The notes beneath the pieces were generated by a model, which was not told the DNA's origin, made no database searches, and saw only the letters and a list, made by a program, of their open reading frames with translations. The translations under genes and the position numbers were made by a program. Of a DNA stretch of 64,000 bases, positions 18,048 to 64,000 are shown piece by piece; position 1 is the stretch's first letter; each line of letters begins with the position of its first letter. Origin of the DNA: Podarcis gaigeae (Eukaryota); NCBI GenBank assembly GCA_964106915.2, contig OZ066914.1. One strand, written 5' to 3'.

Positions 18048-18346
18048 GGGATAGCTCAGTCGGTAGAGCATGAAACTCTTAATCCCAGGGTTGTGGGTTT
18101 GAGTCCCATGTTGAGCAAAAGATTCATGCACTGAAAGGGGTTAGATCAGCAGTTCTCAACCTGTGGGTCCCCAGATGTTGTTGGACTACAACTACAACTC
18201 CCATCATCCCTGAGTTCTGGCCTTCCTAGCTAGGGGTGATGGGAATTGTAGTTCAACAACATCTGGGGACCCACAGGTTGAGAAAGGCTGGGTTAGATTA
18301 ATGACCCTCGTGGTCCCTTCCAACTCTACAATTCTATGATTCTATG
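18048..18346 (+). mobile_element. tRNA-derived SINE with CR1-like 3' tail, interrupted by a hAT MITE (other copies at about 2915-3061 plus and 29035-29163 minus)
   Basis: gatagctcagtcggtagagcatg..actcttaatc tRNA-Lys-like head; gtcccttccaactctacaattctatgattctatg tail. Confidence 0.82.
18147..18290. mobile_element. Palindromic hAT MITE nested in a SINE
   Basis: Near-complete foldback (ttctcaacctgtgggtccccagatgttg / caacatctggggacccacaggttgagaa). Perfect 8-bp TSD ggttagat at 18139-46 and 18291-98. Confidence 0.9.
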
Positions 18347-29222: not shown

Positions 29223-30183
29223 CCGTATTTTTCGTCCCATAGGATGCTCCGTCCCATAGGACGCACCTAGTTTTTTTTGGGGGGGAAATAAAGGAAAATT
29301 TTTTTCCCTTTATTTCCCCCCTCAAAAGCAGGTCGGGGAAACCGAACCAGGTCGAGGAACGGCGCTGCGCCTCCCTGAGCTTGTGGGGCTGGCCGATGTC
29401 TGCCTCAGGCGCAGGCTGCTATCCGCAGCGTGGGGAGCCCTGCGGGGATGTCTATCCGGCGCGCGGGGCGCTCTGCTTCAGGGCGCCCCGCCCACCGGGC
29501 GGCAGGCTGCTATCCGCAGCGTGGGGAGCCCTGCGGGGAACCCCTGCAGGGCTCCCCACGCTGCGGATGTCTGCCCGGCGTGCGGGGCGCTCTGCTTCAG
29601 GGCGCTCCGCCCGCTGGGCGGCAGGCTGCTATCTGCGGCGTGGGGAGCCCTGCGGGGAACCCCTGCAGGGCTCCCCACGCTGCGGATGTCTGCCCGGCGC
29701 GCGGGGCGCTCTGCTTCAGGGCGCTCCGCCTGCCGGCGGCAGGCTGCTATCTGCAGCGTGGGGAGCCCTGTGGGGAACCCCTGCAGGGCTCCCCACGCTG
29801 CGGATGTCTGTCCGGCAGGGCGCTCCACCCGCCGGGCGGCAGGCTGCTATCCGCAGCGTGGGGAGCCCTGCGGGGAACCCCTGCAGGGCTCCCCACGCTG
29901 CGGATGCGCTCCCGAAGCGCCGGGGGCTCTGCTTTCAGGGCGCCCGACGCTCCAGGAAGCAGGCTGCTATCCGCAGCCTAGACATCCTTGCCGGACCTCC
30001 TGCAGGGCTGCCCAGGCTGCAGATGTCTTCCTGAAGCCTGGAGAGCGAGAGGGGTCGGTGTGCACCCACCCCTCTCGCTCTCCAAGCTTCAGCGAAAGCC
30101 TGCATTCACCCCATAGGACGCACCCAGATTTCCCCTTCATTTTTGGAGGGGAAAAAGTGCGTCTTATGGGGCGAAAAATATGG
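29223..30183. mobile_element. Non-autonomous Tc1/mariner (pogo/Tc2-like) element carrying a GC-rich minisatellite
   Basis: TA TSDs at 29221-22 and 30184-85. TIRs ccgtatttttcgtcccataggatgc and gcgtcttatggggcgaaaaatatgg. No transposase. Confidence 0.85.
29411..30030. repeat. GC/CpG-rich minisatellite, about 6 units of 91-120 bp, most with an internal 23-bp inverted repeat
   Basis: Units begin gcaggctgctat at 29411, 29502, 29621, 29739, 29839 and 29959. atccgcagcgtggggagccctgc pairs with gcagggctccccacgctgcggat. Confidence 0.92.
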
Positions 30184-35910: not shown

Positions 35911-35922
35911 CTGCAGGAGCAA

Positions 35923-35966
<44 letters not shown>

Positions 35967-35980
35967 TGATGATGATGATG
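35923..35980. repeat. (AAT)14(GAT)5 microsatellite next to a KCNH7 acceptor
   Basis: Directly visible, 12 nt from the exon start at 35910. Confidence 0.95.
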
Positions 35981-36074
35981 CAATTTAAGAACAGCAATAG
36001 GTTTCTCAAATTCCACAACAAGCTGTGAAAAACCACCAAGTTGACTGCAGCAGTGAATATTTGTACTTTTAATA

Positions 36075-44363: not shown

Positions 44364-44789
44364 CTCATCAGAGCCAGATCCAAATATCAGCAGGTCAAAA
44401 GGGATTGCAGCAACCATGTCAATTAGGAACCAGCCTTTGAAGTAGTGGATTGCTATTCTTGCTGGGTCACTTACCACTTCTTCATTCTGGTTCACATATG
44501 TTGTTCGGAAGTTGATGACAATGTCAATGATAAACATGATATCCACAATTAAGTCTACCATGCTTAGTGGGTTGCATGAATAGCCACACACCAGCCTCTT
44601 CTGTTCTTCGCTGTCGTTGAGGAGGAAGGCTGCAGAGTATGGGGTGAAAATGGCCGTGTAGATCACCAGCAGTAAAATCAGCCAGTCCCAGACTGCTTTG
44701 AAAGGACTGTAGTGCAATATAGTAAACTTGTTGATGCGAGGCGTTTGGAGTTTATATTCTGGCAGAACATCTGCTCCCAAGGATAGAAC
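44364..44789 (-). CDS. KCNH7: KCNH7 (ERG3/Kv11.3) coding exon, S1-S3 (probably the orthologue of human exon 7)
   Basis: Translates [42 protein letters not shown]...[12 protein letters not shown]. Acceptor ctccctag|GTT, donor GAG|gtaagc, 426 bp, phase 0/0. TPRINKFT and [15 protein letters not shown] are ERG3-type rather than ERG1. Confidence 0.96.
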
Positions 44790-45293
44790 CTAGGGAGATA
44801 GAAAGAAAAACGAATCACACTGTGTAAGGGTAAACTATTTAGAGCATAAAGGGGGGAAATGAGGGGTCCACACTGTATAAAGGATAAGTTATCTAGAATA
44901 GAAAGCATATATCCAAATGACATTGTTTCTTTAAAGCCAGGATTCGAAGTTCCATTGTGCGAGTGGATCTCTGTTCATGCAGTGAAGAGATACAACCCCA
45001 GATACCCATGCTTTTATCCTGCAAAAACATTTCTCAATCTACGAACTGTTTTCTTGGTACCTTCCAGGTTGGTGAATGGAAAACCCCCTGAAGCATCTTG
45101 GATTCAGTCTCCTTTCCCATGCAATATTTTGATTTATTGAAAGCTTTCATGTATTCCAAAACCTAGATATTGCAGAGATTCATCATTATGTGATATATAT
45201 GTGCTTGGTGATTCACTGGATTAAGATACTATACTAGAAAGAAAAACTATGTGCTGGAAGATACATGCATGCATACATACATACATACATACA

Positions 45294-45332
<39 letters not shown>

Positions 45333-47789
45333 TAGATAGATTTATTATTAAGCACTTTAAATGGCACATTATGTTTGCCATACCATGAAGAAGCTCTGCA
45401 TTTATGAGCAGGGTTCTCTCTCACTTCTGCAGAAAACATTTCATGCTTGTTAAGATTCATGGGACACACAGCCAGCAATTGGATTTTGAAGTATAGAGCT
45501 CTGGAACACAGTCTGTGTGGATTTGATATATGTACACATTTCAATATATATTTACAGAAGGTATAAACTTGAAAAACATGGAAAAGATAGAGAGAGTTAT
45601 TCAATAGGAAATACAACAGGTTTTGAGTAGGGCTGTACCGCACAGTCTTCCATTTTGCTTTGCTCTCAATAACTCATATCTATCTATCTATCGAGAGATA
45701 GATACAGATTTAGCTCTAGATAGATGTAGATATATACCTGTAGATTAAGATTTCAGATTAAAGCGCTTTTGCAGAAACTTGGGCTCCTTTTAAAAAAAGT
45801 GAACCTCCTTTAATTTAACTTAAAAAAAGACAAACCTCACACCCTCTCCTTAATCACGTAGACAGCATCATTGGCTGAACAAAAATGCATACTGTGAAAA
45901 ACTGGGAGGACACCATGGGTTAATAACCACACTTTTCTTTTGAACAGCACAGTAGGGAATGATTACGTTCTACAGAGATTATAAATTGCTTCTAAGCAGC
46001 CATTAAGCAACATGGGCAAGGGTGCCGGGATAAATCTATTATTTATTCCTTTGCACTTAACTAATGGAGGCTGGCTGAACTGGTTCATATAAAAAGCTGA
46101 ATCGCAGCCTTTTTGCCGCACCTGGAGCCACTCCTTTCCCATATGTACCACTGTCTGAAAGCTCAAAGAGAGGTGAGTATTTAGGCTCCTCCCTCTCTCC
46201 AGGAACCTTTCACTTCTGATCTGTTGTCGCCACTGCTACTAAACTTACCAACAACTAATCCAGGGACTCACACCCCACTCCTATGGATGAACATAACAAA
46301 ACAAGTTCAGGGAGCTGACTATTCCTTTCTTTGTAATAAACCCAACCCAGTTCATTGCCCAGTCATGTAGCTTCTCTTTCTTGATCTGCACACATAGTCA
46401 TTTGTGCCACTGAAGCCAATGAGACTGGCAAGTGTGGCAGAAACTAGCTCTCTAGGGGTTGGAAGCTCTAGTGGTGCAAAACTGGAAAAGGAACCCAACT
46501 GGGCACCATAGAGAAGTTGTGCTTTTGGCTTGGCTTCAAATAATTTGGGTACTCAGGGCGCCCAGGGCAGTTCTATACCTCCCGGCTGCTCTCAGATACC
46601 AATCCTGCTACAACATACAGTGTTGCTAGATTCTGCACAGCAGCACTCAAATTCGTCAGTGGATGAGTTGTGCCACAAACTAGATTTAATGACCATATCA
46701 GAGTGCTCTGTAAATTAATAGTTAAAGTCTTTTATATAGCAACCTTTTATGATCTTCCACACCTGCCCAATGCTCCTATCCCTTCTTTTAGCTTCTTTTA
46801 AATTCTTATAGACTTTTATATTCACCTTCTGTTTTAATACCTTTTAGCTTTTCAGGTTTTAAATGACTGTATCCCTTTTAGGCTGGCCTATGACCGTAAT
46901 AAAGATTTGTATTGTATTGTATAAGGGCTGGAAGCATTTCTTTGCTTATGGCTTCTGTCACTGAATTAGAGGCCCGCCGTTGTAGTCATCAGTAGGAACC
47001 TATTCATTCATAGATTCAAAGACAGGCACAGAACGGTGTCAAGTTTCAAAAATCCCGTTCAGCTATTTAGAAAAGTGATTCAGGAGACTGACAAGAAGAT
47101 GGAGTGTGTGCCCATGGAAAGAAACCCTGAAACATCTTTCACAACCCCTCTTGTATTTCTGAGTTGGCCAGCAGCGGCCAGAGTTGCATTCTGTAGTGAA
47201 TTTTGAGGAAGAAGGTCTAACAACCAGCTTGCACAGCCACCTCTGATGCTGTCACATGAACCTTCCTGGAAGATGCAGATGCTTTTCTAAACACCTCTCC
47301 AAATGCACACTTTGGGGAACCCTGTAGTGGCACACAGAGAAAGCCAATGAGCGCAGCATTCTGCACACCTAATTAGCAGCCACACAACTATTTTTCTTTC
47401 TGGCACTGCCAGGTGCTTGTTGCCGCAGTTCTTCCCATGCCATCGCTACCTGTAGCATCGATGCTAAAAACATGCAGGAACTGATGTGGATGTGATGTTT
47501 TCCGTGTTTGCATGGGTCACATGGAACAGCTCCGAAGAAGGACAGAGTGAAGCCTAATCATATCCAGGTGAAGAAATGATATGTTGGCAAAGCCAAGGAA
47601 CGGCCCACTGCTTTGTAACCCAGGATCCCTTATATTTTAGCAGCAGTTCTGAGACTAGTCCTGTATTCTGATGGTCCTGTGGAGAGTGCCCACGAGCCCT
47701 GGAGCACCCTCTCCGAGGGCAGAGACACAGGTCTGCCCCTGAAGAGGGAAAGCAGACATTGGATGCCTCTTCCCTCCTTTACTACAGAA

Positions 47790-48200
47790 ATAGCTCAGGG
47801 CTGCAATACCTCAAGGGCCGCCTCTTTCCACATGAACCTACCTGGACCCAGAGATCACCTTCTGATGCCCTTTTTTGTATGCCTCCTCCACAAGAGGTCT
47901 GCAGGGTGGCAACACGAGAAGGGACCTTTTTCTGCACTGACTCCCCGTTTGTGGAATGCTCTCCCCAGACACGTTCGCGTGGTGCCATCATTATACACCT
48001 TTAGGTGCCAGGCAAAAATGTTTCTCTTTAGCAAGGCCTTTGGCAGATTGATATTCAATGCACTTTTAAAATGTGTTGGGGAGGAGGGGGTTATTGGGTT
48101 GTTTTTGTTTTTATTATGTATTTTCTGTTCTTATATTGTGCTTTTATGTTGTAACCACCCCGAGACCTGCAAGTGTAGGAAGGTATACAAATTTAATTAA
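47790..48200 (+). mobile_element. L2 LINE 3' fragment
   Basis: FSALTPRLWNALP...SLYTFR..AKMFLF matches the L2 ORF2 C-terminus. Confidence 0.75.
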
Positions 48201-50692
48201 CAAACACTTCCATGGCCTTTGTCCTTATCAGCTGACAAGGTGGTGTGCCAGAGATTCCCAACAAGAGGGAACGGGTCAAAGGGACAAAAATGGGAAAGGG
48301 TGGGTAGTGACTACTTCTGTCCTGCTGGCCCGAGTCTGGCAGGGCATTGGATGTGGTGGGTTGACCACCTTTTTTCTTCTCTCCTTTTTCCCTACACACA
48401 TTTACCTAAAAGTAAGCCCCATTGATTTTAATAGGGCTTACTGCTGAGAAATGAATAGGATGAATGGATGAATAGGATTACACTTTAAATATTCATATAG
48501 AAAAGAGAATAAAACCATGTGAATCAACTTTTTTTTCTGGAATAAAGTACAGTATAGACAGATGAAGTCTAGGATGGTTGAATGCATCCTCTTGTGCAGC
48601 TGATGAAGTGGGCACTGATGGTTCTCCAAACATAGTTGGACTCCAGCTCTTAACACCCCAGCCAGCATGGCCAATGTTCAAGGACGATGGGAGCTGAACT
48701 ACAGGAAGAGCCACCTTCCATTCAAGCTGACATTGGCCCTTTGTTGTTTCTGAGCTACAACCAGTATTGTGATATAGGGAAAAAAAGCAGCCACAATGAC
48801 TAGGCATTGTCATCACCAGCAGCCTGCACATATTGTACAGATAAAATGAATATATATTTTTTAAAATGCTGGTAGTTTCTTTGGGCTTTTTCATAGAAAA
48901 GAAATATTGTCATTTCGATTGGGTTTAAAATCTAAAGCTAAATGCCACCACAACTGCTTCAAATAACACTTATGTTCTCTGAGGTTGAAAAGGCAGTTTG
49001 ATTTTAATGCTGTCATTTTCATTAGTTTGCCTGATTTCTTTTGCACCATAGGATTCTCCTTCCATCTGAATCAACAGGAGTCGCAATTCCTCTCTGCTTT
49101 GTCTCCATTGAAGTCATCAGGCTGTATCCAGCCAAGCCAATTTCTTCCATTTTCTTGTGTAAAAAAAAAAAAAAAGACTGAAAAACCTGTACTAGCCTGT
49201 ATCCCCTAAATAAAATCCCCAAATCTGAATTTAGCTCCTAAATTCATAACAAATGCAGGTGCCTGAGTGAAAACTAAGCCAAACGTTACCCTGGATGACA
49301 ATCGCCATTTCATTCTTGATGACACAAGGAACCAAACAAAGCTGCATTGCATTTCAGAGAATAGCAGAATAAATAATCTTGATCTTTATCATATACAACC
49401 TGAATGGAATTTTTCTCACAGCATCAAAGACATTTGAATTTGCACCAGAAAGGCAGTTCATTACAACACATGGCCAATAGGGTTTTAGCAACAGCCATCC
49501 CCCCACTGAGTATTTTTATGTAGCAAAATTTGACACACATGCCTTATTTGTCTTAAAAGAATCAATCTGTTCCAAAATCAGGTTAATGGCACCTGAAAAA
49601 TACCCAACACGTCTTGGTTTTAGTTGCACTGAGAGTACCCCAATATTCTTTAAAGTAACATGCACTGTATTTAAGAAATTGAGGCTGCAATCCTATACAC
49701 ACATTTATCTGGAAGTAAGTCTAATTTGTCTCAGTGGGAATTACCTCTGAGTAGACACGTATAGGATTGGACTACACAGTGCTTCCCCCCCCCCTCAAAA
49801 AATCTTTATGGGTACTCTCATTTTCCTACTCATATTGAAATACTGCCTCTCAATGAGGCCAAACTTAGATTCACAAAATGTTTAGGGGTATGCGTACCCC
49901 TTCGTACCCCCCACAAAAAAGCACCGGCACTGCATATTGCTGACTCATCCAGCTATTGGAACTGACACTCAGAGTGAAAATAGAAATGCATTGAGATATG
50001 TAAGAGGCTGAAAAGTAAGCCTCAAGTTCACTTTATCATTTGTTAACCATTTAAACCAACAACCATCTGGGTTATGAATTAATGGAACAGTGGCTTCCCA
50101 AAACGTCACATTTTAGGGACTCCCAACGGGGCAGTTAAAATGCTGCAAAGTTGAGGCCATTTAATAATAATAATTTATACCCTGCCCATCTGGCTGGGTT
50201 TCCCCAGCCACTCCGGGCGTCTTCCAACAAAGATTAAAAATACATTAAAATGTCACACATTAGAAACTTCACTTGTGCAAGCTTCCTCCCTCAGGTTTGT
50301 GATTAGACAGAAAATGGCAGCGTGCGAATCTGATCTGCTGAATCTGATTTCCGCAATAATTCATTCAGTTTCCAGAAGTGCTCCTGTGATTGCATAAAAC
50401 GCAGCTGTATCCATCCATCAAGCATTGTTTTATTGCAGGTTCACGCCCTACTCCATATGATTCCAAACCAAGGATTGACTGTGAAGGACTAAACCTTGGA
50501 AAATGTGAGTTGTTTCAATTGGGAGACCAGGGTTCCAGTTCCTGCTCGGCCATGAAGTTTGCTGGGTCATCTTGGGCTAGACACTGCCTCTCAGGCTAAC
50601 CTACCTCACAGCTTTGCTGTGAAGATTAAATGGAATAGAACCATGAATGTCACCATTAGCTCATTGCAAGAAAGGCGGAATAATGATATTAT

Positions 50693-50719
50693 GATAGATA
50701 GATAGATAGATATAGAGAG

Positions 50720-50763
<44 letters not shown>

Positions 50764-50777
50764 GATAGATAGATAGA
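50693..50777. repeat. (GATA)n microsatellite
   Basis: Directly visible, interrupted. Confidence 0.93.
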
Positions 50778-53700
50778 TCTGCATCTACTTGCATGGAAAA
50801 AGACCCAGGTTTGATCCCTGGCTTCTCCAAGTATCTCCCTCTCCCTCTCTCTCTTTTGCCTTCCATCCCAATTTAGGATTGAATCCCAGTTTACTATAGA
50901 GAGAAGCCCCTCTGCAATTATATCTGCAGGAATCTCAATCAAACTTAATGCGGGCCTTGTTATCTGAATGCAAGAAGAAGTTCGGAGAAGTCTCACATTA
51001 GCATTTATTTTTTTTGCTGCCACTAAACAGTAAATCAATATTATCATACTCATATTAAATTCCTTTGGGCTCAGAAAGTACACGGCATGAACTAATACCC
51101 ATACAATTTATTACAACCTCAGTGCTGGATTTAATTAGCTAGTACAACCCATAAGGGGGGGGGGGGGGGGACAAGTCTGCAGAAGAAAAGACTCTGATTA
51201 TTGACCAGCTAATGCTCTCAAACTCCCAATTAGAGTTAAACATTTCTAAAGAGAATGAATTTAGGGTTTAATATAATTGGACAGGGCAAACGGTTTCAAA
51301 TCAGAGCACTCAGGAATGGCAAAACATCGCATCCCAGAGACCAATAACATGCAACGTGCTGTTCCGAATTGCCATTGTGAGGTGCGCTGTGACTTTTTTA
51401 GGTCTCTGAAATGCTACAGTTTAATGAGCGAGAGACTATAATTAGAGATGCTTTTGGATGGCTGTGATGACAGCTGTATCACCTTTGGACTTAATCAGCT
51501 GGAAATGAACATGCACCACTTTCAATTTTGGCACCCAAAGCTGCCCTTTTGAAAAGGCAGAACTTTTAGGGGGGTTTTTTTGGGGGGGGGAGTAGGAGAA
51601 GAGTGGCATTTTTTGAGACTTTTCCAGGAAAGCCTCAAAGGGACTTGACTGAAAGCACTACGAAGTCCTAGAAGGGCAAGTGTGGAGAAGCTCTGTGATC
51701 TTGGGTTAAAAAGCTCTGTAGTAACCAGGAAACCCCAAAGGGACAGTCTAGAAATGTTTAACCTTCTGAGGAGCCATACAATCCCGAACTGAATGAATGG
51801 TTCATCTCAATTATGTTGTTTCCCACTACCTACCACTACCAAACATTTGTGTGCATGTGTATGTATTTTTAAAAGGGGAATAAGCAATGACAATAATTTT
51901 CATGGTGTCACATTTCTGTTGGTAATAATCGGACTACATAGTCACTCAAAAGGATATCAGGATGCACCCAAGAAGATATTATGACATTGAAATCAAACTT
52001 CAAGTCCAACACTAGCTATCAGTGTGCCATGGGCTGTGCACAGGCAGAAGTCTTTAATATTAGTGCTGTGCTGAAAATAGGGAAGGGGAGAAATTCACTT
52101 TGCATTTAAACCCAAATTTATCAAATTTTCACTTACCGCAATGATACAAGAACAAAAAAAGCCATCCTTTGAAATTTGCTGTTATCCGAATTTTGTGACA
52201 CAGTGCTCCAACCAAACAATGGAGAATGTTCACAAAACAATGTTCATAAAACTGCATATGTTAGACGAAAGTGTGCATAAAAATGAATATATTTGCAGGA
52301 TTAATATGTAACAATTCATTATATTAGAAACTGAAAGCAATGAAATTAGTTCTGATCCTAAAACAATCCTAAGCACACTTACAAAGGAGTAAGTCCCAAT
52401 GAACACAGTGGGATTTACTCCTGAATAAGCTTGAATAGCTTTCCAGTGTTAACGTATTTATAAGCTATTACCCTGAAGCAACACCCCCTCCATGAAGAGA
52501 AAGTTTGTTTCTGTCGTCCATTTTAAATACTTTATATAGCAACATTTATTGTTATTATGCTTTATGCCTTACTATGACTCAGATTAATTAAAAGGAAAAG
52601 TTGCTCTAAGCCGGAGGAGTTGCTTTTGCTGGCCGATCTAAAATTAGTTTCATGCTGGTGGGCAAATGCATCATTCAGGTAATGTCTCGAAGCAAATAGA
52701 TTTACTCTGTATGGTTAAGTAGACTATAAATCCTACTCCACTGATTTGAAGGATATCAGTGAAACAGGTGTGACCGACTGTTTCCTTTTCAATGAGTGCT
52801 AATGGGAGAAAGTTTGCAACATTTTTCTTACCTATATTTATCTGCATTTTTATGAGACACCTTAGTCAGGAGCAACCAACCAAGCATGATGTCCCTCCCT
52901 CCTGCTTCGTCTCTCTCCCATTAACCCGTCACTCTTGTCTCCTCACAATATTCATATTGAAGTAAACAAACGGGGTCTTTTCAGCATGTTCTTTACTAAC
53001 CAAGAGCTATGAACTGCAAAGGAATATGCCCTCATTGATTGCCTTCATAGTCTCAACACCCTTATTAAGAAGCATTTTCTATTCACCCAACAAGCAATTA
53101 AATAAGAAGGATTTAAAGAATTGCTGTTCTGATAAAGCATGAAAGTAGTTTCATTCGCAAGTTGCTGCTGCTCTGTATAGAAAGTTATTTTCCCAACCCT
53201 TTCCACATCGCCATGATTTCTGTGGATCCTTCCCCTTGGTTCAGAACTCTTCCCTGAACCCACAGAAATGGGTTGATTCAAATCCCTATTACTTTCTTTC
53301 TTTCCACCTTTCCAGATATTTAGGATAAGTTACTACATAGCCGAATCACAGTAAAGCTTTTTAACTAGTTTGGACTGGTGGAAGTTTTAGTGGGCAAATA
53401 AAGTAGAGTTGCGTAAGAGTTAAATATATAATTCATTTTGCATACTATAATTATGATTTGAAAAGTTAAGTTGCATATTGTTTCTTTAAGTTTTTAAGTC
53501 GAGTTGCCTTCCATATTCTGTCCCCCCCCCTTTTTCTGTTTCCCCTATAATCGTTATCTACACATACGGTTCTGTTTATATCATTATTTTACAAGTTGCA
53601 ATCCATTCACTGACCTTCTGTTGCCGTTGTTTTTAAAATAAACGTTTTCTAACAGATTTTGGCTTCTCAAGTCCTGTTTGCTCTCACCCGTTAAGGCAAT

Positions 53701-55034
53701 CCAATCTTCAGTATGGAAAGTCTGGCCAGCTCCCCGGGCAGAAGGGCAATTTGAACATAAGTCTGATGCTCCCCTCCCGTGTATTGGTTTCAATACATAA
53801 TTTGCTAATATCTAAACCTGCCTGGAAATGAATAAAGTGCCCATTTTTTGAACCTAAGATCCTGAATCTCTTCCTGCCAAAGAGTTTAGCTGAAGCAGGG
53901 CAAACTGAGCTTTGCTCCACTGAAGCCAAAGAAAACTTAGTAATGGGGAGTTGGGTATAACACCATTAAAATTCTCATAAACCCTTCTTACCACCCATAA
54001 ATCCTGCACAAAGCATGGGCTGGAGACAGATCCAGCTTGTAAAATGCTAGAATGCTACAGATCTTTCCAGATCATATCTAACACTGTGCCCCACGGCGGG
54101 AGAAGGGCAATGCATAAAACTAAATGTACAATGCTTAATAATAATAATAACGGAGTTCAGAGCAGGGTGGGACTTTGCCTAGTTGGCAAATGTTCGCTTC
54201 ACCACTGTTATGTAAAGGGGTTTGCATCAAGCTAAGCTGTGTTCACACTGAATGTAAAATATATTCAAAATGCTTTCCTTCCCTCAAAGAATTCTGGGCC
54301 CTGTAGCTTACCTCTCTCAGAGTTACAAATCCCAGCAACCCTTAGCAAACCACAGTGTCCATAATTCTTAGAGGGGGAAAATGTGATTTGAATGTACTTC
54401 GAAAAATGCAGTGTGTAGGCAGCTTTAGTGGAACCAAGTGAGTTAGCAAAGCAGATAGGGGAAATATCTCATGGCCAAAGTAGATGTGAAGCTTCTCATG
54501 GAATTTGGTATTGTGTGGCTGTGGTTATTTAAACTAAAGAGATGGCATAAGAACCATGGCATGTGTGTGTTTTAGCTCTTTGTGTCCACCATGGTCCCTA
54601 TTAGCAGTACTATTTTTCTGGAAAAAGAGGTACCTGAACTCACCATGAACACCTACCTCTTCTCTTAGAGTGGTGCCCAACTGAGTTCCGGCAAGTTCCA
54701 GCTGGAAAAAAAGCCCTTTTTGCAATCGTAGGAAAGGTTCCCTTGGTGCCAAACTGCATTTTCCTGACACATAAAGCTTCCTGTGTCTCTATTACACATT
54801 CAACATCACCAAGAAGCCTAGTAACTTATGATTAATGATTTATACTAAAGCTTTTAAGCATACTATAAAATTGTCTTTATGCGTAGAAAACAGTAAATGC
54901 CATATTTGGAGAAGAACATGTTGCCTCTTAAGAGATGCCTGGTTTTATGGGAGAGGTTCATAGAGCAAGCCAAAGAGAATGCTCTGTGGGAGGAACTCCT
55001 TCAGAACATTCTTTTGGTGCACTTGAGTTTCAAA

Positions 55035-55289
55035 GAGAGCCGGTGTGGTGTAGTGGTTAAGAGCGGCAGACTCGTAATCTGGTGAACTGGGTTCGCTTCC
55101 CCGCTCCTCCACATGCAGCTGCTGGGTGACCTTGGGCCTGTCACACTTCTCTGAATTCTCTCAGCCCCGCTCACCTCACAGAGTGCTTGTTGTGGGGGAG
55201 GAAGGGAAAGGAGAATGTTAGCCGCTTTGAGACTCCTTAGGGTAGTGATAAAGCAGGATATCAAATCCAAACTCTTCTTCTTCTTCTTC
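55035..55289 (+). mobile_element. tRNA-derived SINE with (CTT)n tail (Squam3-like)
   Basis: A-box tggtgtagtgg, B-box-like gggttcgcttccc, CORE-like gtgaccttgggc. Close paralogue at 4349-4619. Confidence 0.85.
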
Positions 55290-58272
55290 AAATGCCCAGC
55301 AGCCACACACTGGATGAACTACTGAAAGCAACAACAACTATTTATTTCATGTATGTCTGTGGAAAATTTCTCAGAAAACCCACTTCTGTCTATTGCAGGA
55401 GGCATGGGGAGAGACTTGCCAGCAAGGCAAAACCCCCTCCGAAAAAAAAAATCAAATTATCTCTCAAGAAAACCAAATTTTGTGTTCATAATTGATGTGA
55501 GTCATCATGCCATCACACTACTGAAGGTGTCTCTTAGTTAGCATGGAGCAGACCGTCCTCTCTGCATGTATGTATGGATCAGCCCTCGCAAAGCAATCAC
55601 CAGATAGAAATTCCATACAATCAATTATCATTAGGATGCATTTCAATGGAGAATGAGAGTCTTTAGGGAATGAGACATCAGGTATGATCATGCCTATGCG
55701 AATGAAACCAAAATTTCATTATTCACTTCTGTCCTGCTGCTCCACCGATGTGCCCACAGCGTGAATAAAAGAACAATACACTATAGAGATAGAAGCACAA
55801 TTACTGAAAACCATCTAAAAACAGTAAGAGTCTACCTATGAGAAAACCATCAGCAGATGTTACAATTGGTAGCATTTAAGCATTGGAAACATTGTCCTCA
55901 ATATTCGTTTATTTTTGGCTTTTGTATGCTGCCTCTTAACATTATGTTCTTTTACTTGCAATAAATAGTAACGTTCCTCCTGGTTTCTCCCCTAGAGTCA
56001 TGCTTTAAGAAAACAACGGAAAACATAAATTATCGGGAATTCAAATTATGCTATTGCACATACAGGAACTCTATAAAGTAGGGGCACTATAGGTGGGCTG
56101 TTTAGTTGTGCAAAATTTGGTTGCTATCCTGCACTTCCTAGTGTAATTATCTAGTGTCAGTCTGATAAGGAAACTGACTGGAAAATCACAGTTGAAAGTG
56201 AGGGATAACAACCACTATCTTGCAAGGTTATGTAACCTCTGTGTCAGCATATCAGGATAAATGCTCAATAAGTAGGCAATGTTGAGCAACATCGGTGCAT
56301 GTTTTGTGCAAACTTAATGGCATCAATGCTCAATAAACAGTGAGCCTGGAAGCTCCTTAAGTCTGACCCACTTTAGGCTAAGCAATGCCTAGTAGACGTG
56401 AAATCCAAACAAAAATGGTCCTCTGGAGATCCAATTGGATCTCCAGGATTCTATTCATACACAGCAATATTTTCATGATAAAAACTGCTTTCCTCTTAAA
56501 TGTGCTTCTTTTGAGTTTAACATCATATGCATGCTAATCTTTCCTAAATCGATTCTTTTAAACTCGTTCATTAACTACCTGTCTTCCAGAACTTCTAATG
56601 GAAACCTGTTGGTTAGATGTTTTCAATTAGCACAAGTTCATTCATGAATCAGTGCTTCAGTTAAAGCAGCCAAATGCTTGCCTAATAGAATTTATTTTCC
56701 TGATTTGGCCTAATTGACCCTGAAAACTGAAATGGTGCTTCTGAAGACAAGTAGGAAGGTTTTACACACTGATAAAAGAGAGGGGGGAAATGCTCTATTA
56801 TTGTAATATTCCCTTCTTCCGATGCCCTCAGACAGGTACGTAGAGATAACTTGTACCTGTGCTCAAGATGACATGTGAACAAGTCCAATGGGAGTGGGGG
56901 AATATGGGCCTACCGAGGATCTCTTACACACAACTGACAAAAACATGGGTTAGGCTCCTGGATTACTTACACAGAATATGAAGGCAAAGGAGAGCTTTTG
57001 ACAACATGTGTGTGAGAGCATGTGTGTACAGGCACAGGCACTTACATAGCTACACATGCTAAGGTGATGATCCTTAGAATGCGGAGTGTCCCTGTTTTCA
57101 CCTAGAAAATGTCTGGTGGCCTGCGTGATGCAACAGGTGCAGTATAAAACCATCTTGCTTTCTAAAGACCACAGGACAGACTTGGATGGCAGGCTGATTT
57201 AACTCCAGCTGCATAAACAACGGAGTGTCTTTTACAGGATTAGGCCTCCTGCCTTAACGCTGCTTCCCATAAGGAAGAAAGCACTATTAAAAAGGCCACT
57301 GATCCCCTTTCAAGAGAAAGATGCCACGTTTGTAATTTTTGAAAACATCCAGGCTTTAAAGCCCATTCTCCAATCTCTTGTCCCTGGCTTAGGCTTTCAT
57401 CTCTGCACACCTGCACACCATTGTGATTTGTTAGCATTTTGTACCCACTTAATGATTTCACAGGTGCGAGACATGGAAGAATCAGCCCATTGATCTCTGC
57501 TGCTGGGCCCATCTCCGCAAAGCGTACATCCCCCCCCCCACATTTCCTCCTCCCTCCCTTCCAACACAGCTGTTTTTCCACATCTTTGTTGCATAAATAC
57601 ACTTTGAAAATGATAGTGTAATTAAGCACACTTAAATCATTACCATAATTAGGACCTGTGTTGCAATTATTAAAAAAAAAGTTTTGTAACTATGTAACCC
57701 CAATAAAAGCTGAAATCTTAACTGGAGGAAGGTATTAAAAATTAACGTAGAAGAGCAACATTTTCCACGTGGTGTGTGTATGTTCCTTTCTCATCAGGAA
57801 CAGGAAGAGAGAAAGAGAGAGACAGGTGACGAGAGAGACACCGTAACTGAACAAATCACAGGGACAACAAAGTAATGAAGTGGCATTAAGCTTACATTAC
57901 TAGGATGATTATAGGCATAATTGGAAAATACAGATTAAACCTTAAGCTTTCTCAGTAATTAAGGAGCAATTCCTTAGGGGCTGGTCACACAAACCAATTT
58001 TGTAGTTCCACAGTGATCCTCTATGACTATGTTATACTACAAGAGTTGTGGGAATGGCTTGGATACAAAAACGGCTCCAGAAATGGAAACAGTCCCCTGA
58101 AGTTCTCAGGAAGTTCTCTGTCTCAGGACCCAGTTACACAGCTGAACATAAAATGTTTTAAATGTGTTGTAAAGTGCAATATATAAATGTGACACTAGAT
58201 GGCGATAGTGAGCTATGAAAAATTCAGTGTGTTTTTCAAAACGTATATATATATATATATATAAACGTATAT

Positions 58273-58791
58273 ATGCAGGTTTTGGTGTCCTCGGGTGTCT
58301 TCCCGTGTAAAAGTTGGGGTGTCTAGGCGACGTTTCGACGAGGTCTCACTCGTCATCTTCAGGCTGGTGCTTTCGGCTTCTTGTTACTGGAACAGAGCGG
58401 GATCTCAATGTTTGAGTTCCTATAAATACTGTAGAGGGGGTGTGGTGTCTAGCCTCCAATGTTCTGGGCAGAGAGGAAGTTCCCAGGCTAGTGTGCCTTT
58501 TCTTCTTTTGTTCCTTAATTACTTGAGAGATACCTTGAGTGATTTCTTGAGTGATATCCTGAGTACCACTTAGGTGGGTCATTAGGTGTGGATTAGTTGC
58601 TAAAGTCTTTGTGTCTTGACCTCTTGAACTTTGTGAAGAGTTTTCCTGAGAAGATGGCTGTATTGCACTTAGTTGTGCTTTGGCTTGGCTTCGTGTATAG
58701 GGGCGAGCTGTTGTTTTGTGGCTTGTGTCAGCCAGATCTGTGTAGGGATTGCAGGGGGGTGCAGCATCCGGAGGTGCCACCATGGATTGGC
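58273..58791 (-). repeat. Left (inverted) pLTR arm, 519 bp
   Basis: Mirror coordinates sum to 118552 at both ends and internally. Translations in three frames are identical to those of the right arm. Confidence 0.95.
58327..58364 (-). ncRNA. Second copy of the minimal hammerhead core, in KCNH7-sense orientation
   Basis: Exact reverse complement of 60188-60225. Predicted cleavage between 58329 and 58328. Confidence 0.85.
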
Positions 58792-60206
58792 CACACGGGA
58801 AGGAAAAACTGGATAGCTTCCTCACACATCTCAACAACTTACACCCCAAAATACAATTCAGTATGGAAATAGAAGCCAACAACCAACTTCCCTTCCTTGA
58901 CGTCCTAATCTACAAAAAACCTGATGGCTCCCTAGGACACACTATCTACCGGAAAAAAACACACACCAACCGCTACTTACATGCACAATCACACCACCAC
59001 CCTGCACAAATAAACTCCGTAGCCAAGACTCTCATCTCCAGAACCAAACGCCTGGCTGACAAAGACCACTTGACAACTGAGTTACAGAATCTCTCAAATG
59101 TGTTAATTGCCAATGGATACCAGCAAAACAGGATTACGAAGCTAATCCAAAAGGAAACACCCCCCAAAAACCAAGACACAGAAGAAAACAATGGCATGGC
59201 CCTCCTTCCTTATATCAAGGGCACTACCTATAAAATTAGCAAAATCCTCCATAAACACAATATCAAAACAGCCTTTTGCACCAACCAAAAAATAGCCAAT
59301 ATCCTCAGAAACCCCAAGGATAAAATCCAGTTGGAAAACCAAGGGATCTATGAAATACCCTGCAAAGTCTGCCCAGCCACGTACATTGGACAAACAAACA
59401 GACGAATAAATGCACGTATCGCAGAACACAAGAATGCCGTCAAAAAAGAAGAAAAAACTTCCTCTCTTTTCCAACACATGAAAGAAACAGGACACGAAAT
59501 TAATTTTGCAGATTCCAAATTGCTCTTTAACACGGAACATCACCACAAGAGAATAATCATGGAAGCCATCGAGATAGAGAAACACCCTCACAACATGAAC
59601 AAGCGTGACGACACATCCCGCTTGCCAGACATCTGGAAATTAGCCCTCCCCACAAAAACTGACACCAGATCCAGAGGCACACAGAACGCCAACACCAATC
59701 AACCACACCAGACCCAAACCCAGACCCTCTCCACAGATGAATTACTGACACCATCCAGTAGCCAATCCATGGTGGCACCTCCGGATGCTGCACCCCCCTG
59801 CAATCCCTACACAGATCTGGCTGACACAAGCCACAAAACAACAGCTCGCCCCTATACACGAAGCCAAGCCAAAGCACAACTAAGTGCAATACAGCCATCT
59901 TCTCAGGAAAACTCTTCACAAAGTTCAAGAGGTCAAGACACAAAGACTTTAGCAACTAATCCACACCTAATGACCCACCTAAGTGGTACTCAGGATATCA
60001 CTCAAGAAATCACTCAAGGTATCTCTCAAGTAATTAAGGAACAAAAGAAGAAAAGGCACACTAGCCTGGGAACTTCCTCTCTGCCCAGAACATTGGAGGC
60101 TAGACACCACACCCCCTCTACAGTATTTATAGGAACTCAAACATTGAGATCCCGCTCTGTTCCAGTAACAAGAAGCCGAAAGCACCAGCCTGAAGATGAC
60201 GAGTGA
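58782..60206 (+). CDS. Uninterrupted 474-aa ORF: PLE RT thumb/linker, GIY-YIG endonuclease and pLTR-encoded low-complexity tail; lacks the RT catalytic YxDD
   Basis: Lies in ORF 58749..60206. The first ATG, at 58782, is in GCCACCATGG and comes from the inverted arm. No stops. Expression is not shown. Confidence 0.7.
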   Translation: MDWPHGKEKLDSFLTHLNNLHPKIQFSMEIEANNQLPFLDVLIYKKPDGSLGHTIYRKKTHTNRYLHAQSHHHPAQINSVAKTLISRTKRLADKDHLTTELQNLSNVLIANGYQQNRITKLIQKETPPKNQDTEENNGMALLPYIKGTTYKISKILHKHNIKTAFCTNQKIANILRNPKDKIQLENQGIYEIPCKVCPATYIGQTNRRINARIAEHKNAVKKEEKTSSLFQHMKETGHEINFADSKLLFNTEHHHKRIIMEAIEIEKHPHNMNKRDDTSRLPDIWKLALPTKTDTRSRGTQNANTNQPHQTQTQTLSTDELLTPSSSQSMVAPPDAAPPCNPYTDLADTSHKTTARPYTRSQAKAQLSAIQPSSQENSSQSSRGQDTKTLATNPHLMTHLSGTQDITQEITQGISQVIKEQKKKRHTSLGTSSLPRTLEARHHTPSTVFIGTQTLRSRSVPVTRSRKHQPEDDE

Positions 60207-60279
60207 GACCTCGTCGAAACGTCGCCTAGACACCCCAACTTTTACACGGGAAGACACCCGAGGACACCAAAACCTGCAT
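59761..60279 (+). repeat. Right pLTR arm, 519 bp; includes four 12-bp tandem units at 59988-60035
   Basis: Reverse complement of 58273-58791. Tandem units: actcaggatatc / actcaagaaatc / actcaaggtatc / tctcaagtaatt. Confidence 0.95.
60188..60225 (+). ncRNA. Minimal type I hammerhead ribozyme core (PLE-associated)
   Basis: gc-CUGAAGA-U-GACGAG(ugagac)CUCGUC-GAAAC-GUC-gc: conserved core, perfect 6-bp stem II, palindromic ACGU stem III. Predicted cleavage after 60223. Confidence 0.85.
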
Positions 60280-63101
60280 TCCTGTACCCGTGAAAATCTA
60301 CGAAAGCAAACGTATATATATATATATATATATATATAAATTTTCACAGCGTTTTTAAATATGTGTTTTGAGTCCACCTCTGTCTCTGTCCCCGTCTCTC
60401 TGTCTCTCTATGTGTGTGAGAGACAGAAAGAGATGGGGAGGGCAGGGAAAACGAAAATGTTATGTACTATTGTGCCCCTTTCTTCAAAGTTTGAGGGTCA
60501 GAATCTCCTTTAAAAAAAATCATTAAAAAGGGAGGGATGTCAGGTTTTTGCATTTCAGCTTTCTTTAATAAAAGGTACTTTTTTGTGCCCTAGGGAAGAC
60601 TTGTCTCTTCCTGACAATCACTGCCAAGACCCCATCTGAACTTGTCAGTGTAAAATATGTAGCAACTGGGCTGTTCTTCTGAGCTGGTTGTCAAGAAAGA
60701 TGAATAGGACAGAAGGATATAAAAAGCAAATTGATACCCACTCCCTTGCCCAAGAGTTATAGTCTGGCTTAGGACATCTGGAAATTAGGTGGTATATGAT
60801 GAAGTGCACAGTTCACAAGATTCTCTTTTCAGGCTGCTTTCCACTGCCATTAGCTATACACTATGGAATTAACCTTGTCCTCAAGATTTCAATCTACAGC
60901 ATGGAATAAGGTATAATAAGTATAGCTATATTTAAATTCCTGCTTCACCATATTGTTTAGAACACGGATTGCCAACCTATTTGGAGTCCGAATTTTGAGA
61001 GTGTTCTGTGGGTGCCAGTCACAAAATGGCTTCCATGGGGATGTGGTGTAAACCAGGGTTTTTTTCCAGGCAGAACTCACTGGAACTCAGTTCCAGCACT
61101 TCTCAGATTGCCCACCAGTGCCATTATAAGAGGAGGCGTTCATGGTGAACTCTGGCACCTCTTTTTCTAGAAAAATAGCAAAATTAGGGACAAAATTAGG
61201 CTCTCCCAAACCCAGACAACTCACTGTTTTCTATGGGATTTCAGCCGCGTCCTGCTGGCACTGATTGTGGAGATACAGCTGTTAATGGCACAATAATCCA
61301 GTTTCCCCCAATGCCAATTCCAAACCTTGGCTGCCATCCTTTATCCACTTAGCTGGCATTCATCCCCATTAAACAAAAGTGACTGACTTCTGAGTAGACA
61401 TGCTTGCCATTATGCTGCAAGTTAACTATACATTGATTCCTTCACGAGTGCCTGGCTTTAGGTCCTGCACAGCAGCTGATATGCTGAGACATCTTTGCAA
61501 AGTTTTTATGTTTTGCATTTGCCACCTGGGGAGGGGATTACGGTATTATACACCCTCCCACATTATTGCATAGTATCATTTGCAGAAAATAATATCTAGG
61601 GGTCTAGGGATGATCTGAACTCAAACAGACACACCACAGGAAAGATGCATCTTGACTACAATCTGGCTTGTCTCATCTCACGGAAATCGCTTACTGTAGA
61701 AGGGTTCCTACACATTTTGCTTTATAACTTTCCTTTCAGTAAGGCTATACTTTTATTTTTTAAGTTGAAAGCTTTGAGTCTGCAGCCGTTGTCCTAGGGG
61801 GTATCAATGAAGGCCTTCAGAGGTGTCATGGGACCCACAAACAATGTGCTGACAACCCCTGATTTAGGATTCACCAGCAGTTAGCCATTTTAGCATGCCA
61901 ACACAAGCACACACTCAATCCTTTTGGAATAGCACATAAGAACGCACGACTAAAATGCATCCACCAAAATGACAAACACAGATAACATTTACAACTTAAT
62001 AAATTCACAGAACTTAATCTTCAGACAGTGGGACAGATCACCAGTGCTGCTAATTCCTATTTGGAAAATTTGCATACTGAATAATTACCACCTGGAATAA
62101 CAAATGCTGTGTGAGGCAGACTGGATTGGACAGGTGATAAATATTTGCACATCTGGTAGTATTAAAATGGGGGGGGGGGACTGTGCTAAATCAAAAAGAT
62201 CCACTGAACACCCCACCACCTGTTCAGTTGGCCTCACATGCTTCTTTTTGTTTCTTTCCCTTGCAACATTAAAATTATGTACTGACATTCTCCTTCCATT
62301 GGTGGCTGGCACAGTAGGCTGGGTGTCATTTACAAGGCCCCACTTTATAACCACATGGCATGCTGCTGATAACTGAGAGGGCAGGTTGGTGCAGTGAAAG
62401 GAAGAGTCAGGAGTGTCAGGTTGGCTCTGCTGCTGCTCTCGCACTGTGTTGACCTTTCTGCCACCTTGCCTCTCACCCTCCCAGTTACCAGAAGTGACCA
62501 CAGCATTGGGAAGCCAAGTTAGCAATGTCCCTCCTGCTTCATCCCGCTGGCCACTGCTATATTTTTCACTGAAGTTCTTCAAATTTTACTCTGCCCTTCT
62601 CTGCCCAGGAAGATCAAAGGCAAGGCCGCAGCATCAATAAAAGGGACACCACATTTTCTTTATGTGGCAGAAGAAAATGAAGTGAACAACGAAGAGCAAA
62701 TGTGTGACACCGTCACTGCCAATAGGTGTAGCATTTAAGGCCATGGGATGCAATGTTGACACCCCATTCATGTATATGAACATAAGGAGCTGCCTTATAT
62801 CAGATCAGACAATTTGCCCATCTAGCCCCGGACTGTCTTACTCTGACCAGCAATGATTGTCCAGGGTCTTGGGCAAAGGTCTTTCCCATCACCTGTAACC
62901 TGAAGGTTCAGGATAAAGGGTCAGGGTGATGGGGAAACCTCATATGGGTTGTAACAGTCCCGTCAAAACGGGAACAACTCTAAATTTCAGGGGTTCCTCA
63001 AACTCTAAGCAGATGGAATAGATTGCCAGTTCAGAGTAGTATAGGAAGCTGTCTGATGCCAAATCATTCGCACACCTGATCTAGCTCAGAATTGTCCACA
63101 C

Positions 63102-63217
63102 CAGGTGTGCAAAACCTTTGGCCTGCCAGATATTGCTGAACTACAATTCCCAATGGTCAACGGCCATAATTGATGTAGTTCAAAAACATCAGGAGGGCCA
63201 AAGGTTAGCCACACCTG
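63102..63217. mobile_element. hAT MITE nested in a tRNA-derived SINE (about 63040-63335, minus strand)
   Basis: caggtgtgc...gccacacctg termini. TSD gtccacac/gtctatac matches 6 of 8. Confidence 0.65.
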
Positions 63218-63846
63218 GTCTATACTGACAGGTAGCTTTTGGATAGGGCTCTCTTCCAGCACTATGTGGAGATGCTGGGATTTGAAGCTGGGACCTTCTG
63301 CAAGCAAAGCAGATGCTGTACTACTGAGCTATGACCCTGCCCCAAGTTCCTTGGGGGCAGAGACCTGTCTTCTCATACTCTGTAAAGTGTCACACACACA
63401 GCGTGCTGAAGGCACTGAGCACACAAAAACTGGGAATGATGAATGAGAAAAGGTTATACGTGGGAAGGAAACCACTCCTTGATTCTTTGTTTCTTTCTCA
63501 TCCTCAGAAGAAATACTGTAAAGCAAGCACCAGGACCAGAATTTTATAAAACTATAAAGAGAATAGAAACATGAGCTAAATTGCCCTGGAAGCATTCTGT
63601 GAAGTATTCTTGGCATCTTGGGGAGCACTTCAAATTTAATTTTAAATTTAGTGAGCTGTAGAGTTCCTGGCAAGTCAGACTGTCCTAAACTGATTCTGCC
63701 AGGGTCTTGTATAAATGTGTAAATGATTATGTTATTCATTTAAGTGTAGATCAATTTCCCCCCTTTAAGACACTAATCTCTGATATGGAATAGCTAGTGA
63801 ATTGGAATTGCATATTTTGGCATTAATTTATCACACCAGCATGAAG

Positions 63847-63912
<66 letters not shown>

Positions 63913-64000
63913 GAAACTGGATTTACGCTATCTATACAAGTAGATTCTGCAAATATGCAGCAAAATGATCTCCATGTTCAACAAGACATTCTGGATTAGA

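What the first reader, a model, noticed from the sequence alone, without database searches (positions are those of the whole stretch)
58327..58364. Hammerhead ribozyme core in the sense strand of the KCNH7 pre-mRNA intron
Seen: CUGAAGA-U-[6-bp stem II]-GAAAC-GUC on the minus (KCNH7) strand, about 13.5 kb upstream of the S1 exon. The element body is antisense to the gene, so only the inversion produces a sense copy. Known: PLEs carry minimal hammerheads with palindromic stem III, thought to act mainly as dimers. Inference: co-transcriptional cleavage could attenuate KCNH7, but the complementary arm is transcribed first and could mask the ribozyme in a duplex, giving a built-in off state. Stem I is only about 2 bp (gc/gc), so activity may be weak.
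Basis: partly seen in the sequence, partly recalled or inferred. Interest (0 to 1): 0.7.

Follow-up and report, generated by a model that had tools for sequence, protein, structure and literature searches.

The report
Masked retrotransposon hammerhead in KCNH7 intron
This small self-cutting RNA motif is the standard end-piece of a recently active jumping gene that sits inside a reptile potassium-channel gene, and it is predicted to stay switched off there because its mirror-image copy is transcribed first and would pair with it, so it is most likely an ordinary passenger rather than a gene regulator.

Summary
The motif is real: CUGAAGA-U, a 6-bp stem II, GAAA-CGUC on the KCNH7 strand (58362-58329), 13,539 nt upstream of the S1 exon. 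It is one of two identical copies (the other is 60190-60223, +) in a perfect 519-nt inverted repeat. That repeat flanks a 5'-truncated Penelope/Poseidon-type element with a 28-nt tail and a TA-rich target. This is the published anatomy of such elements, and the scan noted similar inverted hammerhead ends on other DNA. Contigs of three DNA runs show a high-copy family and 7 other inversion junctions, each in one run only.

Attenuation of KCNH7 is unlikely:
- Forcing the ribozyme fold in the read-through RNA costs +73 kcal/mol.
- Stem I is 2 bp (pairing probability at most 0.02).
- No second sense copy lies in the window for a dimer.
- Published relatives do not cleave as monomers or without the element's protein.

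The masking follows from the geometry of any such inversion; no switch was found. Side result: the hammerhead also holds the element's likely start codon and the last codons of an ORF that stays open across the whole repeat. Nothing was assayed. Verdict: ordinary new member of a known kind.

The parts
58327..58364 (-). Minimal type I hammerhead, sense to KCNH7: 2-bp stem I, core C3 at 58362, unpaired U after A9 (58355), predicted cut 58329/58328
58337..58354 (-). Stem II (6 bp, G10.1-C11.1 first pair) with 6-nt loop
58330..58333 (-). Palindromic ACGU (15.1-16.1, no loop): could form stem III only between two copies; self-duplex -1.7 kcal/mol
   Evidence: dimer model from PMC4209133
58273..58791 (-). 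Inverted arm (5' inverted pLTR-containing copy, no tail), 519 nt, 100% complementary to 59761-60279
58787..58791 (.). 5-nt microhomology shared by the inverted arm and the element body at the inversion junction
   Evidence: contigs of other copies match the body from 58787 (X1 loose end, X3 record 21, X16 record 12)
58787..60206 (+). 5'-truncated PLE ORF: starts just after the RT YVDD motif, then thumb and GIY-YIG endonuclease, then a 182-codon extension open across the pLTR, stop 60204-60206 inside the hammerhead
   Evidence: (49-52% identity to full-length PLE proteins from residue ~500)
59761..60279 (+). Forward arm; on the KCNH7 strand it is the antisense mask that is transcribed first
60188..60225 (+). 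Second, identical hammerhead in the element's own orientation (antisense to KCNH7)
60196..60198 (+). ATG spanning A9-U-G10.1: likely start codon of the element's ORF; frame open to the element's 3' end
   Evidence: same position in anole PAc and in relative P0001
60280..60307 (+). Tail: about 28-nt extension present only on the forward end; ends about +112 from the ATG
   Evidence: PAc reverse transcription starts at +111 to +118
58263..58274 (+). Candidate 12-bp target-site duplication, left copy (ambiguous: lies in a TA microsatellite)
60308..60319 (+). Candidate 12-bp target-site duplication, right copy, running into (TA)n
58421..58428 (.). TATA-like octamer readable on both strands (mirror copy 60124-60131); promoter activity untested
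   Evidence: similar two-way TATA described in a rotifer pLTR
44364..44789 (-). KCNH7 S1-S3 coding exon, next exon downstream of the insertion (3' end approximate)

Best explanation
The motif is the minimal hammerhead in the terminal repeat of a high-copy Penelope/Poseidon-type retrotransposon, mirrored onto the KCNH7 strand by a 519-nt inversion, and in KCNH7 pre-mRNA it is predicted to be silent, so it is likely a passenger with no effect on the gene. How it likely arose (inferred): the element's endonuclease cut TA-rich DNA, two cDNAs began at the two ends of the tail (about +84 and +112 from the ATG), both stopped early, and they were joined head to head over 5 shared bases, leaving a copy without its RT active site. 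How it behaves in the intron (predicted): polymerase makes the antisense arm first, the sense arm pairs with it as it emerges, and the hammerhead bases are already in a long duplex. If freed, it would still need a second copy for stem III and probably the element's protein. Its sequence is kept for the element's own cycle, where the same bases also carry the likely start codon and the end of the ORF.
For: Shown: anatomy with truncated RT-thumb/GIY-YIG body, inverted arm without tail, forward arm with tail, TA target, matching published PLE insertions. [quoted passage not shown] Family abundance: single contigs on the element have depth 25,000 (X1), 17,035 (X3) and 5,312 (X4) against 45.6, 13.7 and 11.9 on the unique flank, roughly 450-1,250-fold (rough). 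7 of the 9 joints listed link the inverted arm to the body at other positions (4 in X1, 1 in X3, 2 in X4), each in one run only, the X1 ones at about half flank depth; 5 of the 7 keep a whole hammerhead in the arm. No alternative letter reaches 10% at any hammerhead position in the 4 runs. Computed: all 38 hammerhead bases pair with the antisense arm in the minimum-energy fold; forcing the ribozyme fold costs +72.8 kcal/mol; nascent-chain folds pair 430 of 430 arm bases when C3 emerges; stem I probability 0.001-0.018 even without the mask. Literature: no detectable monomer cleavage and low dimer activity (PMC4209133); the PAc hammerhead cleaves only with its protein and no RNA-seq ends were seen at its cut site (PMC11167929); slow intronic ribozymes reported not to affect splicing (PMC10274809 citing Fong 2009).
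Against: No cleavage, RNA end or allele data for this locus. Folding is equilibrium modelling of naked RNA; hnRNPs or helicases could delay the duplex. The intron beyond 64000 is unseen and may hold another sense copy of this abundant family, and family RNAs could supply a partner in trans. No contig across this copy's own inversion junction (58791/58792) is among the rows shown, and the one across its left edge has only 24 letters in the arm, below the tool's 31-letter rule (4,839 pieces not shown). The other junctions rest on single contigs with 20-27 letters on the short side. The twin-cDNA origin is inferred; Arkhipova 2013 prefers self-priming on an antisense template.
Confidence: 0.85

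Rival explanations
1. One reading: the sense hammerhead cuts nascent KCNH7 pre-mRNA often enough to lower KCNH7 output, with the duplex as a switchable off state (opened by helicases or editing, or helped by PLE protein or PLE RNA in trans).
For: Core is intact and identical to the family majority. The anole homologue is a working protein-assisted ribozyme. The site is 13.5 kb from the next exon, about 3-4 minutes at the mammalian rates quoted, like the CPEB3 ribozyme (9.9 kb).
Against: +72.8 kcal/mol to free the fold; zipped before the core is made; 2-bp stem I, no stem III in a monomer, no partner in the window; it would need a half-life of minutes whereas relatives are inactive as monomers. 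A-to-I editing that loosened the duplex would also hit core adenosines (inference). The arms are 100% identical, so the copy is young and shows no sign of selection.
Confidence: 0.03
2. The insertion does touch KCNH7, but not through the ribozyme: the 519-bp hairpin would slow or silence the allele (editing, small RNAs, chromatin), or the pLTR promoter would start intragenic transcripts.
For: Perfect 519-bp duplex predicted; a two-way TATA-like octamer in both arms and 5 GTRAG donor-like sites on the KCNH7 strand; pLTR promoters are documented in Drosophila Penelope.
Against: No AATAAA or ATTAAA and no pyrimidine-rich acceptor on the KCNH7 strand of the insertion. The one donor-like site after the hammerhead ATG (58349) is phase 1 while the S1 exon begins in phase 0, so no in-frame short channel isoform results. 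The site is deep in an intron of at least 19 kb.
Confidence: 0.08
3. The motif is not a working ribozyme in any setting; it persists because the same bases encode the start and end of the element's protein.
For: Two reading frames overlap on it; Rfam has no match; cleavage is dispensable for PAc insertion in vitro; Naiad elements thrive without hammerheads.
Against: Relative P0001 keeps the helix with different letters: its two overlapping frames fix a DNA sequence in which 3 of the first 5 stem II pairs differ on both sides yet still pair, followed by the same GAAACGUC (one relative, inferred from protein). PAc shows C3-G8 rescue in vitro. Rfam misses this class in controls.
Confidence: 0.04

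Closest known systems
Minimal hammerheads (min-HHR) of metazoan Penelope-like elements (Cervera and de la Pena 2014, PMC4209133)
   Same: Type I core, unpaired base between A9 and 10.1, G10.1-C11.1, palindromic 15.2-16.2 without loop, position in the terminal repeat, opposite-strand pairs, presence in reptiles.
   Different: Stem I is 2 bp rather than the usual 4-5 bp (2 bp is reported for D. virilis); stem II is 6 bp.
Poseidon of Anolis carolinensis, PAc (Frangieh et al. 2024, PMC11167929)
   Same: ORF starts at the start of stem II; 3' end 111-118 nt into the ORF; tail; AT-rich target; squamate host.
   Different: Cut site is 28 nt after the start of the ATG here by my count versus 26 reported. 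This copy is truncated past the RT active site. Sequence identity to PAc was not measured (its .gbk supplement cannot be read).
PLE insertions with a 5' inverted pLTR and one-sided tail (Arkhipova 2013, PMC3846280; Craig 2021, PMC8557442; Schostak 2008, PMC2377424)
   Same: Head-to-head inverted copy at the 5' end, tail on one end only, microhomology junction, microsatellite target with unclear duplication.
   Different: No upstream direct pLTR here because the body is truncated; the ORF runs open through the whole repeat.
Intronic regulatory ribozymes: CPEB3 HDV-like ribozyme; conserved amniote intronic hammerheads (HH9/HH10, names recalled)
   Same: Self-cleaving motif on the sense strand of a neuronal gene's intron, about 10 kb before the next exon.
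   Different: CPEB3 cleaves as a monomer with a 2-3 minute half-life and is conserved. This one is a young mobile-element copy, lacks stems I and III, and is predicted to be masked; no Rfam hammerhead model matches it.

Membership tests
PLE minimal hammerhead (min-HHR) | Conserved core CUGANGA ... GAAA ... UH | tested here: met
PLE minimal hammerhead (min-HHR) | Stem II of 4 bp or more beginning G10.1-C11.1, with one unpaired base after A9 | tested here: met
   6 bp, probabilities 0.98-1.00; features listed
PLE minimal hammerhead (min-HHR) | Palindromic 15.1-16.1 stretch with no or tiny loop 3 | tested here: met
   ACGU at 58333-58330
PLE minimal hammerhead (min-HHR) | Short stem I | tested here: inconclusive
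   Only 2 bp, probability at most 0.018; usual 4-5 bp, but 2 bp in D. virilis
PLE minimal hammerhead (min-HHR) | Located in the pLTR of a PLE | tested here: met
PLE minimal hammerhead (min-HHR) | Self-cleavage as a dimer or with protein | not testable with these tools
   needs an assay
Canonical hammerhead (Rfam families) | Match to an Rfam hammerhead model; stable stems I and III as a monomer | tested here: not met
   No hit at E<=10; no monomeric stem III
EN+ PLE, Penelope/Poseidon clade | RT followed by a C-terminal GIY-YIG endonuclease in one ORF | tested here: met
   GIY-YIG E 4e-4, 21 bits, just under Pfam's cut-off of 22.6; 49-52% identity to full-length RT-bearing proteins, E 1e-80 or better. 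The RT catalytic part is missing from this copy.
EN+ PLE, Penelope/Poseidon clade | [quoted passage not shown] | tested here: met
   One lone Cys between thumb and GIY; criterion
EN+ PLE, Penelope/Poseidon clade | Phylogenetic placement of the RT with named Poseidon elements | not tested
   RT core absent from this copy; no named reference sequence fetched
EN+ PLE insertion structure | Inverted 5' copy and 30-40 nt tail on one end | tested here: met
   519-nt inversion; tail 28-31 nt depending on the ambiguous A run
Host-regulatory intronic ribozyme (CPEB3-like) | Able to fold and cleave alone within minutes in the pre-mRNA | tested here: not met
   By computation only: +72.8 kcal/mol, no dimer partner
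Host-regulatory intronic ribozyme (CPEB3-like) | Conserved at the orthologous site across species | tested here: inconclusive
   Flank contigs of X3 and X4 stop at a repeat before the insertion; presence there was not determined
Non-LTR retrozyme | Non-coding tandem units each with a hammerhead | tested here: not met
   Coding body, inverted not tandem; definition

The most novel reading that the evidence does not exclude
These minimal hammerheads do cut host pre-mRNAs when exposed, and the head-to-head inversion is a self-made safety catch: a read-through transcript from either side always makes the antisense arm before the ribozyme. Masked copies like this one would then be tolerated in introns while unmasked sense-strand copies are purged, which would give the first in vivo evidence that PLE hammerheads cleave. 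A genome-wide count of masked versus unmasked copies in introns of this young family tests it without any bench work.
Probability: 0.07. Interest if true: 0.55.

Novelty: new member of a known kind. Interest (0 to 1): 0.13.

Why it matters
As it stands it matters little: genomes of amphibians and fish hold thousands of such motifs, and this family has hundreds of copies or more. If cleavage of KCNH7 pre-mRNA were shown, it would be a case of a young transposon ribozyme tuning a neuronal potassium channel, and it would bear on the open question of whether PLE hammerheads cut in vivo. The practical gain is a young lizard-like family with many private inverted insertions, suited to a masked-versus-unmasked test.

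Tried and rejected
Rfam scans: no hammerhead hit; uninformative because 10 of 10 control loci with the same minimal architecture were also missed. Own genome: none held, so no genome-wide copy count and no view of the intron beyond 64000. PDB sequence search with the PLE fragment: 0 hits at E<=1. Metagenome scan: 4 distant loci (32-38% identity), no hammerhead by my descriptor. Viral-contig pattern scan: 41 of 120 matches have a stem II of 4 bp or more, and none of those loci matched the PLE protein. I aligned 18 of them with the window motif but built no model and counted no covariation, because they were selected with the window's own core and by pairing. N-terminal 37 aa versus P0001: no significant BLASTP match. 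Sequencing runs: no RNA holder listed. Run X16 (RNA is a guess, another species) covers the element but not the unique flank, and one contig crosses the cut site with 50 and 104 letters on either side; contigs cannot show ends, so this is not used as evidence. Letter differences in X16 cannot be read as editing. Only the left flank, one arm and the body were laid, so the empty allele could not be seen and polymorphism of this copy is open. In-frame short-isoform idea rejected on splice phase. Premature polyadenylation rejected: no signal on the KCNH7 strand. Lunse et al. 2017 (PMC5785218) is not held; only its title and a review's summary were seen. The search 'KCNH7' + 'ribozyme' found 0 papers; the library lacks most subscription papers. 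Scan look-up by sequence found nothing.

Full report
Observation. The minus strand at 58364-58327 reads gc-CUGAAGA-U-GACGAG-UGAGAC-CUCGUC-GAAA-CG-UC-gc. In hammerhead numbering C3 is 58362, stem II is 58354-58349 with 58342-58337, G12-A15.1 is 58336-58333 and C17 is 58329, so the predicted cut is 58329/58328. The core pattern occurs twice in the window against 0.03 expected; 0 of 100 shuffles had two. A full descriptor gave 2 in the window, while 2 of 150 simulated windows gave one and none gave two. The two sites are mirror copies of one insertion. A looser descriptor without the palindrome found 6 sites in the window; the other 4 have 4-bp stems and no ACGU. Rfam finds no hammerhead here but also missed 10 of 10 control loci of the same minimal type. 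The short stretches alone fold no better than shuffles.

Host gene. The exon at 44789-44364 (minus) is 97% identical to Podarcis muralis KCNH7, and the other top rows are mostly squamate KCNH7; two higher-scoring rows named KCNH2 have lower identity (88% and 61%). Eight coding exons map in order down the minus strand (P0056). The exon that precedes S1 in the squamate isoforms is not in 44790-64000, so the site lies in an intron of at least 19 kb, 13,539 nt before the S1 acceptor, provided the gene continues beyond the window.

What the motif belongs to. 58273-58791 and 59761-60279 are a perfect 519-nt inverted repeat. Between and through them runs a plus-strand ORF fragment that aligns at 49-52% identity to three full-length RT plus endonuclease proteins, starting just after their YVDD motif, with a weak GIY-YIG hit and no Zn-finger linker. 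That fits the Penelope/Poseidon clade (criterion); no tree was made. The forward end carries a tail of about 28 nt (60280-60307) that the inverted arm lacks, and both ends abut TA runs with a candidate 12-bp duplication. The junction shares 5 bases between arm and body. An inverted 5' copy with a one-sided tail is the described PLE structure (passages of PMC8557442; PMC3846280; PMC2377424). [quoted passage not shown] Here an ATG spans A9-U-G10.1 (60196) and the element ends at about +112. The motif meets the four traits listed for minimal PLE hammerheads except that covariation could be checked against one relative only (PMC4209133, parts 1-2 of 4 read).

The family is abundant and makes inversions routinely. 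I laid 4 of the 24 listed runs on 56758-59757, which holds the left flank, one arm and the body. Single contigs on the element have depth 25,000, 17,035 and 5,312 in X1, X3 and X4, against 45.6, 13.7 and 11.9 on the unique flank: roughly 450-1,250-fold, a rough figure. Of 9 joints listed, 7 link the inverted arm to the body at other positions, one is the natural body-to-repeat continuity and one is an internal deletion. Each of the 7 is seen in one run only; the four in X1 are at depth 24-28, about half the flank, as heterozygous insertions would be. Five of the 7 keep a whole hammerhead in the arm. Each rests on one contig with 20-27 letters on the short side. No alternative letter reaches 10% at any hammerhead position. 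Whether this copy is present in X3 or X4 could not be told, and no contig across its own inversion junction is among the rows shown (4,839 pieces not shown).

Would it cut KCNH7 pre-mRNA? Four predicted barriers stand in the way. First, the antisense arm is transcribed first. In the minimum-energy fold of 60330-58230 all 38 hammerhead bases pair with it, and forcing the ribozyme fold costs +72.8 kcal/mol. In folds of nascent prefixes, 430 of 430 arm bases are paired when C3 emerges. Second, even without the mask stem I has probability 0.001-0.018 and a monomer has no stem III. Third, a dimer needs a second sense copy and none lies in the window; the ACGU self-duplex is worth -1.7 kcal/mol and a two-copy cofold did not form it. 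Fourth, published minimal hammerheads show no monomer cleavage and low dimer cleavage; the PAc one cleaves only with its protein, and no RNA-seq ends were found at its cut site. Slow intronic ribozymes are reported not to affect splicing (passages of PMC10274809 citing Fong 2009), and polymerase covers 13.5 kb in about 3-4 minutes at the mammalian rates quoted there. All of this is computation and analogy; nothing was assayed. Loopholes remain: proteins may delay the duplex, the unseen part of the intron or family RNAs may supply a partner, and transcripts starting at the TATA-like octamers would lack the mask, though they would not be KCNH7 pre-mRNA.

The masking is geometry, not a switch. 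In a head-to-head insertion, a transcript entering from either side meets the antisense arm first and the sense hammerhead last. This follows from the sequence and applies to every such inversion, so it does not point to KCNH7 in particular. It does suggest a genome-wide test, given as the novel case. A preprint reports hammerhead-bearing retrozymes depleted from Xenopus introns (10.64898/2026.07.22.740005, part 1 of 5 and passages), which is compatible but does not separate cleavage from general selection.

Other routes to an effect. The KCNH7 strand of the insertion has no AATAAA or ATTAAA and no pyrimidine-rich acceptor, but 5 donor-like sites. The one after the hammerhead ATG is phase 1 while the S1 exon starts in phase 0, so no in-frame short channel results. 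A 519-bp hairpin could attract editing or silencing (inference, untested).

Side result: three codes on one stretch. The ORF stays open for 182 codons after the endonuclease, across the whole repeat, and stops at 60204-60206 inside stem II, 8 nt after the ATG in another frame. The other two frames have 10 stops each, and 3 of 5,000 simulated sequences were open. One of 31 related proteins, P0001, shows the same overlap of its C-terminus with its own N-terminus over 24 codons; the other 30 reach 4 at most and 930 cross-pair controls 6 at most. The DNA this fixes has the ATG at the start of stem II, a helix in which 3 of the first 5 pairs change on both sides, and the same GAAACGUC. This supports a real helix, and it also gives a second reason for sequence conservation. 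The ATG position is published; I did not search the literature for the overlap.

Novelty and limits. The kind is known, and this scan noted similar inverted hammerhead-bearing PLE ends in another genome. 'KCNH7' with 'ribozyme' found 0 papers in the library. Lunse 2017 could not be read; its dimer result is taken from its title and a review's passage (PMC6765202). The PAc sequence file could not be read and one supplement gave no usable text, so direct comparison with the PAc hammerhead, including its stem I, is open. The names HH9/HH10 are recalled. Verdict: observation confirmed; a new member of a known kind; most likely a silent passenger (0.85); interest 0.13.

Noticed in passing
window 59658-60206 (+): The PLE ORF stays open for 182 low-complexity codons across the whole terminal repeat and stops inside the hammerhead, overlapping the likely start codon in another frame (3 of 5,000 simulations open). 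P0001 has the same overlap over 24 codons; 30 other relatives do not. Possible translational coupling in tandem copies.
   Followed up: partly
P0001, residues about 966-994 versus 1-24: The two overlapping frames put A at core position 8; this fits a hammerhead only as the U3-A8 variant described in PMC4209133. The base at position 3 is not fixed by the protein.
   Followed up: partly
window 58126-58235 (and probably 60340-60380): The PLE sits in or beside a second high-copy repeat (contig depth far above the unique flank in X1, X3, X4). It contains CACTAGATGGCG at 58193-58204, which resembles the CTCF motif (recalled); one match in the window, 0.10 expected with 1 mismatch allowed, pattern chosen after seeing it.
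   Followed up: partly
viral-contig loci such as L027, L049, L081, L095 (match plus 8 nt) and L008, L010, L019, L098: The same minimal hammerhead architecture (core, unpaired U, stem II, GAAACGUC) occurs in 41 of 120 pattern matches in viral contigs, in at least two sequence groups, with no match to the PLE protein and no Rfam hit in 10 tested. Gene context not examined.
   Followed up: partly
window 18052-18109 (+): Partial tRNA match above Rfam's gathering score (35 bits, model 8-63) in a KCNH7 intron; probably a tRNA-derived SINE head or pseudogene.
   Followed up: no
window 29243-30186: GC-rich (64%) tandemly repetitive stretch, open in all three plus-strand frames for 200-308 codons, inside a KCNH7 intron.
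   Followed up: no
window 54610-54724 and 61047-61178; 63100-63219: Diverged inverted repeats (76-87%) either side of the PLE, and a 46-bp-arm hairpin, likely small DNA-transposon relics.
   Followed up: no
window about 35920-35990 (-): An ATT/ATC-type trinucleotide run reading as poly-Ile lies just upstream of the S4-S6 exon, where the acceptor's pyrimidine tract would be expected.
   Followed up: no
window 58837, 58861, 59228-59229: At 58861 and 59228-59229 all laid contig depth in the four runs shows another letter than the window, so this copy has private changes in its body while its two arms are still identical; 58837 differs in X4 and X16 only.
   Followed up: no
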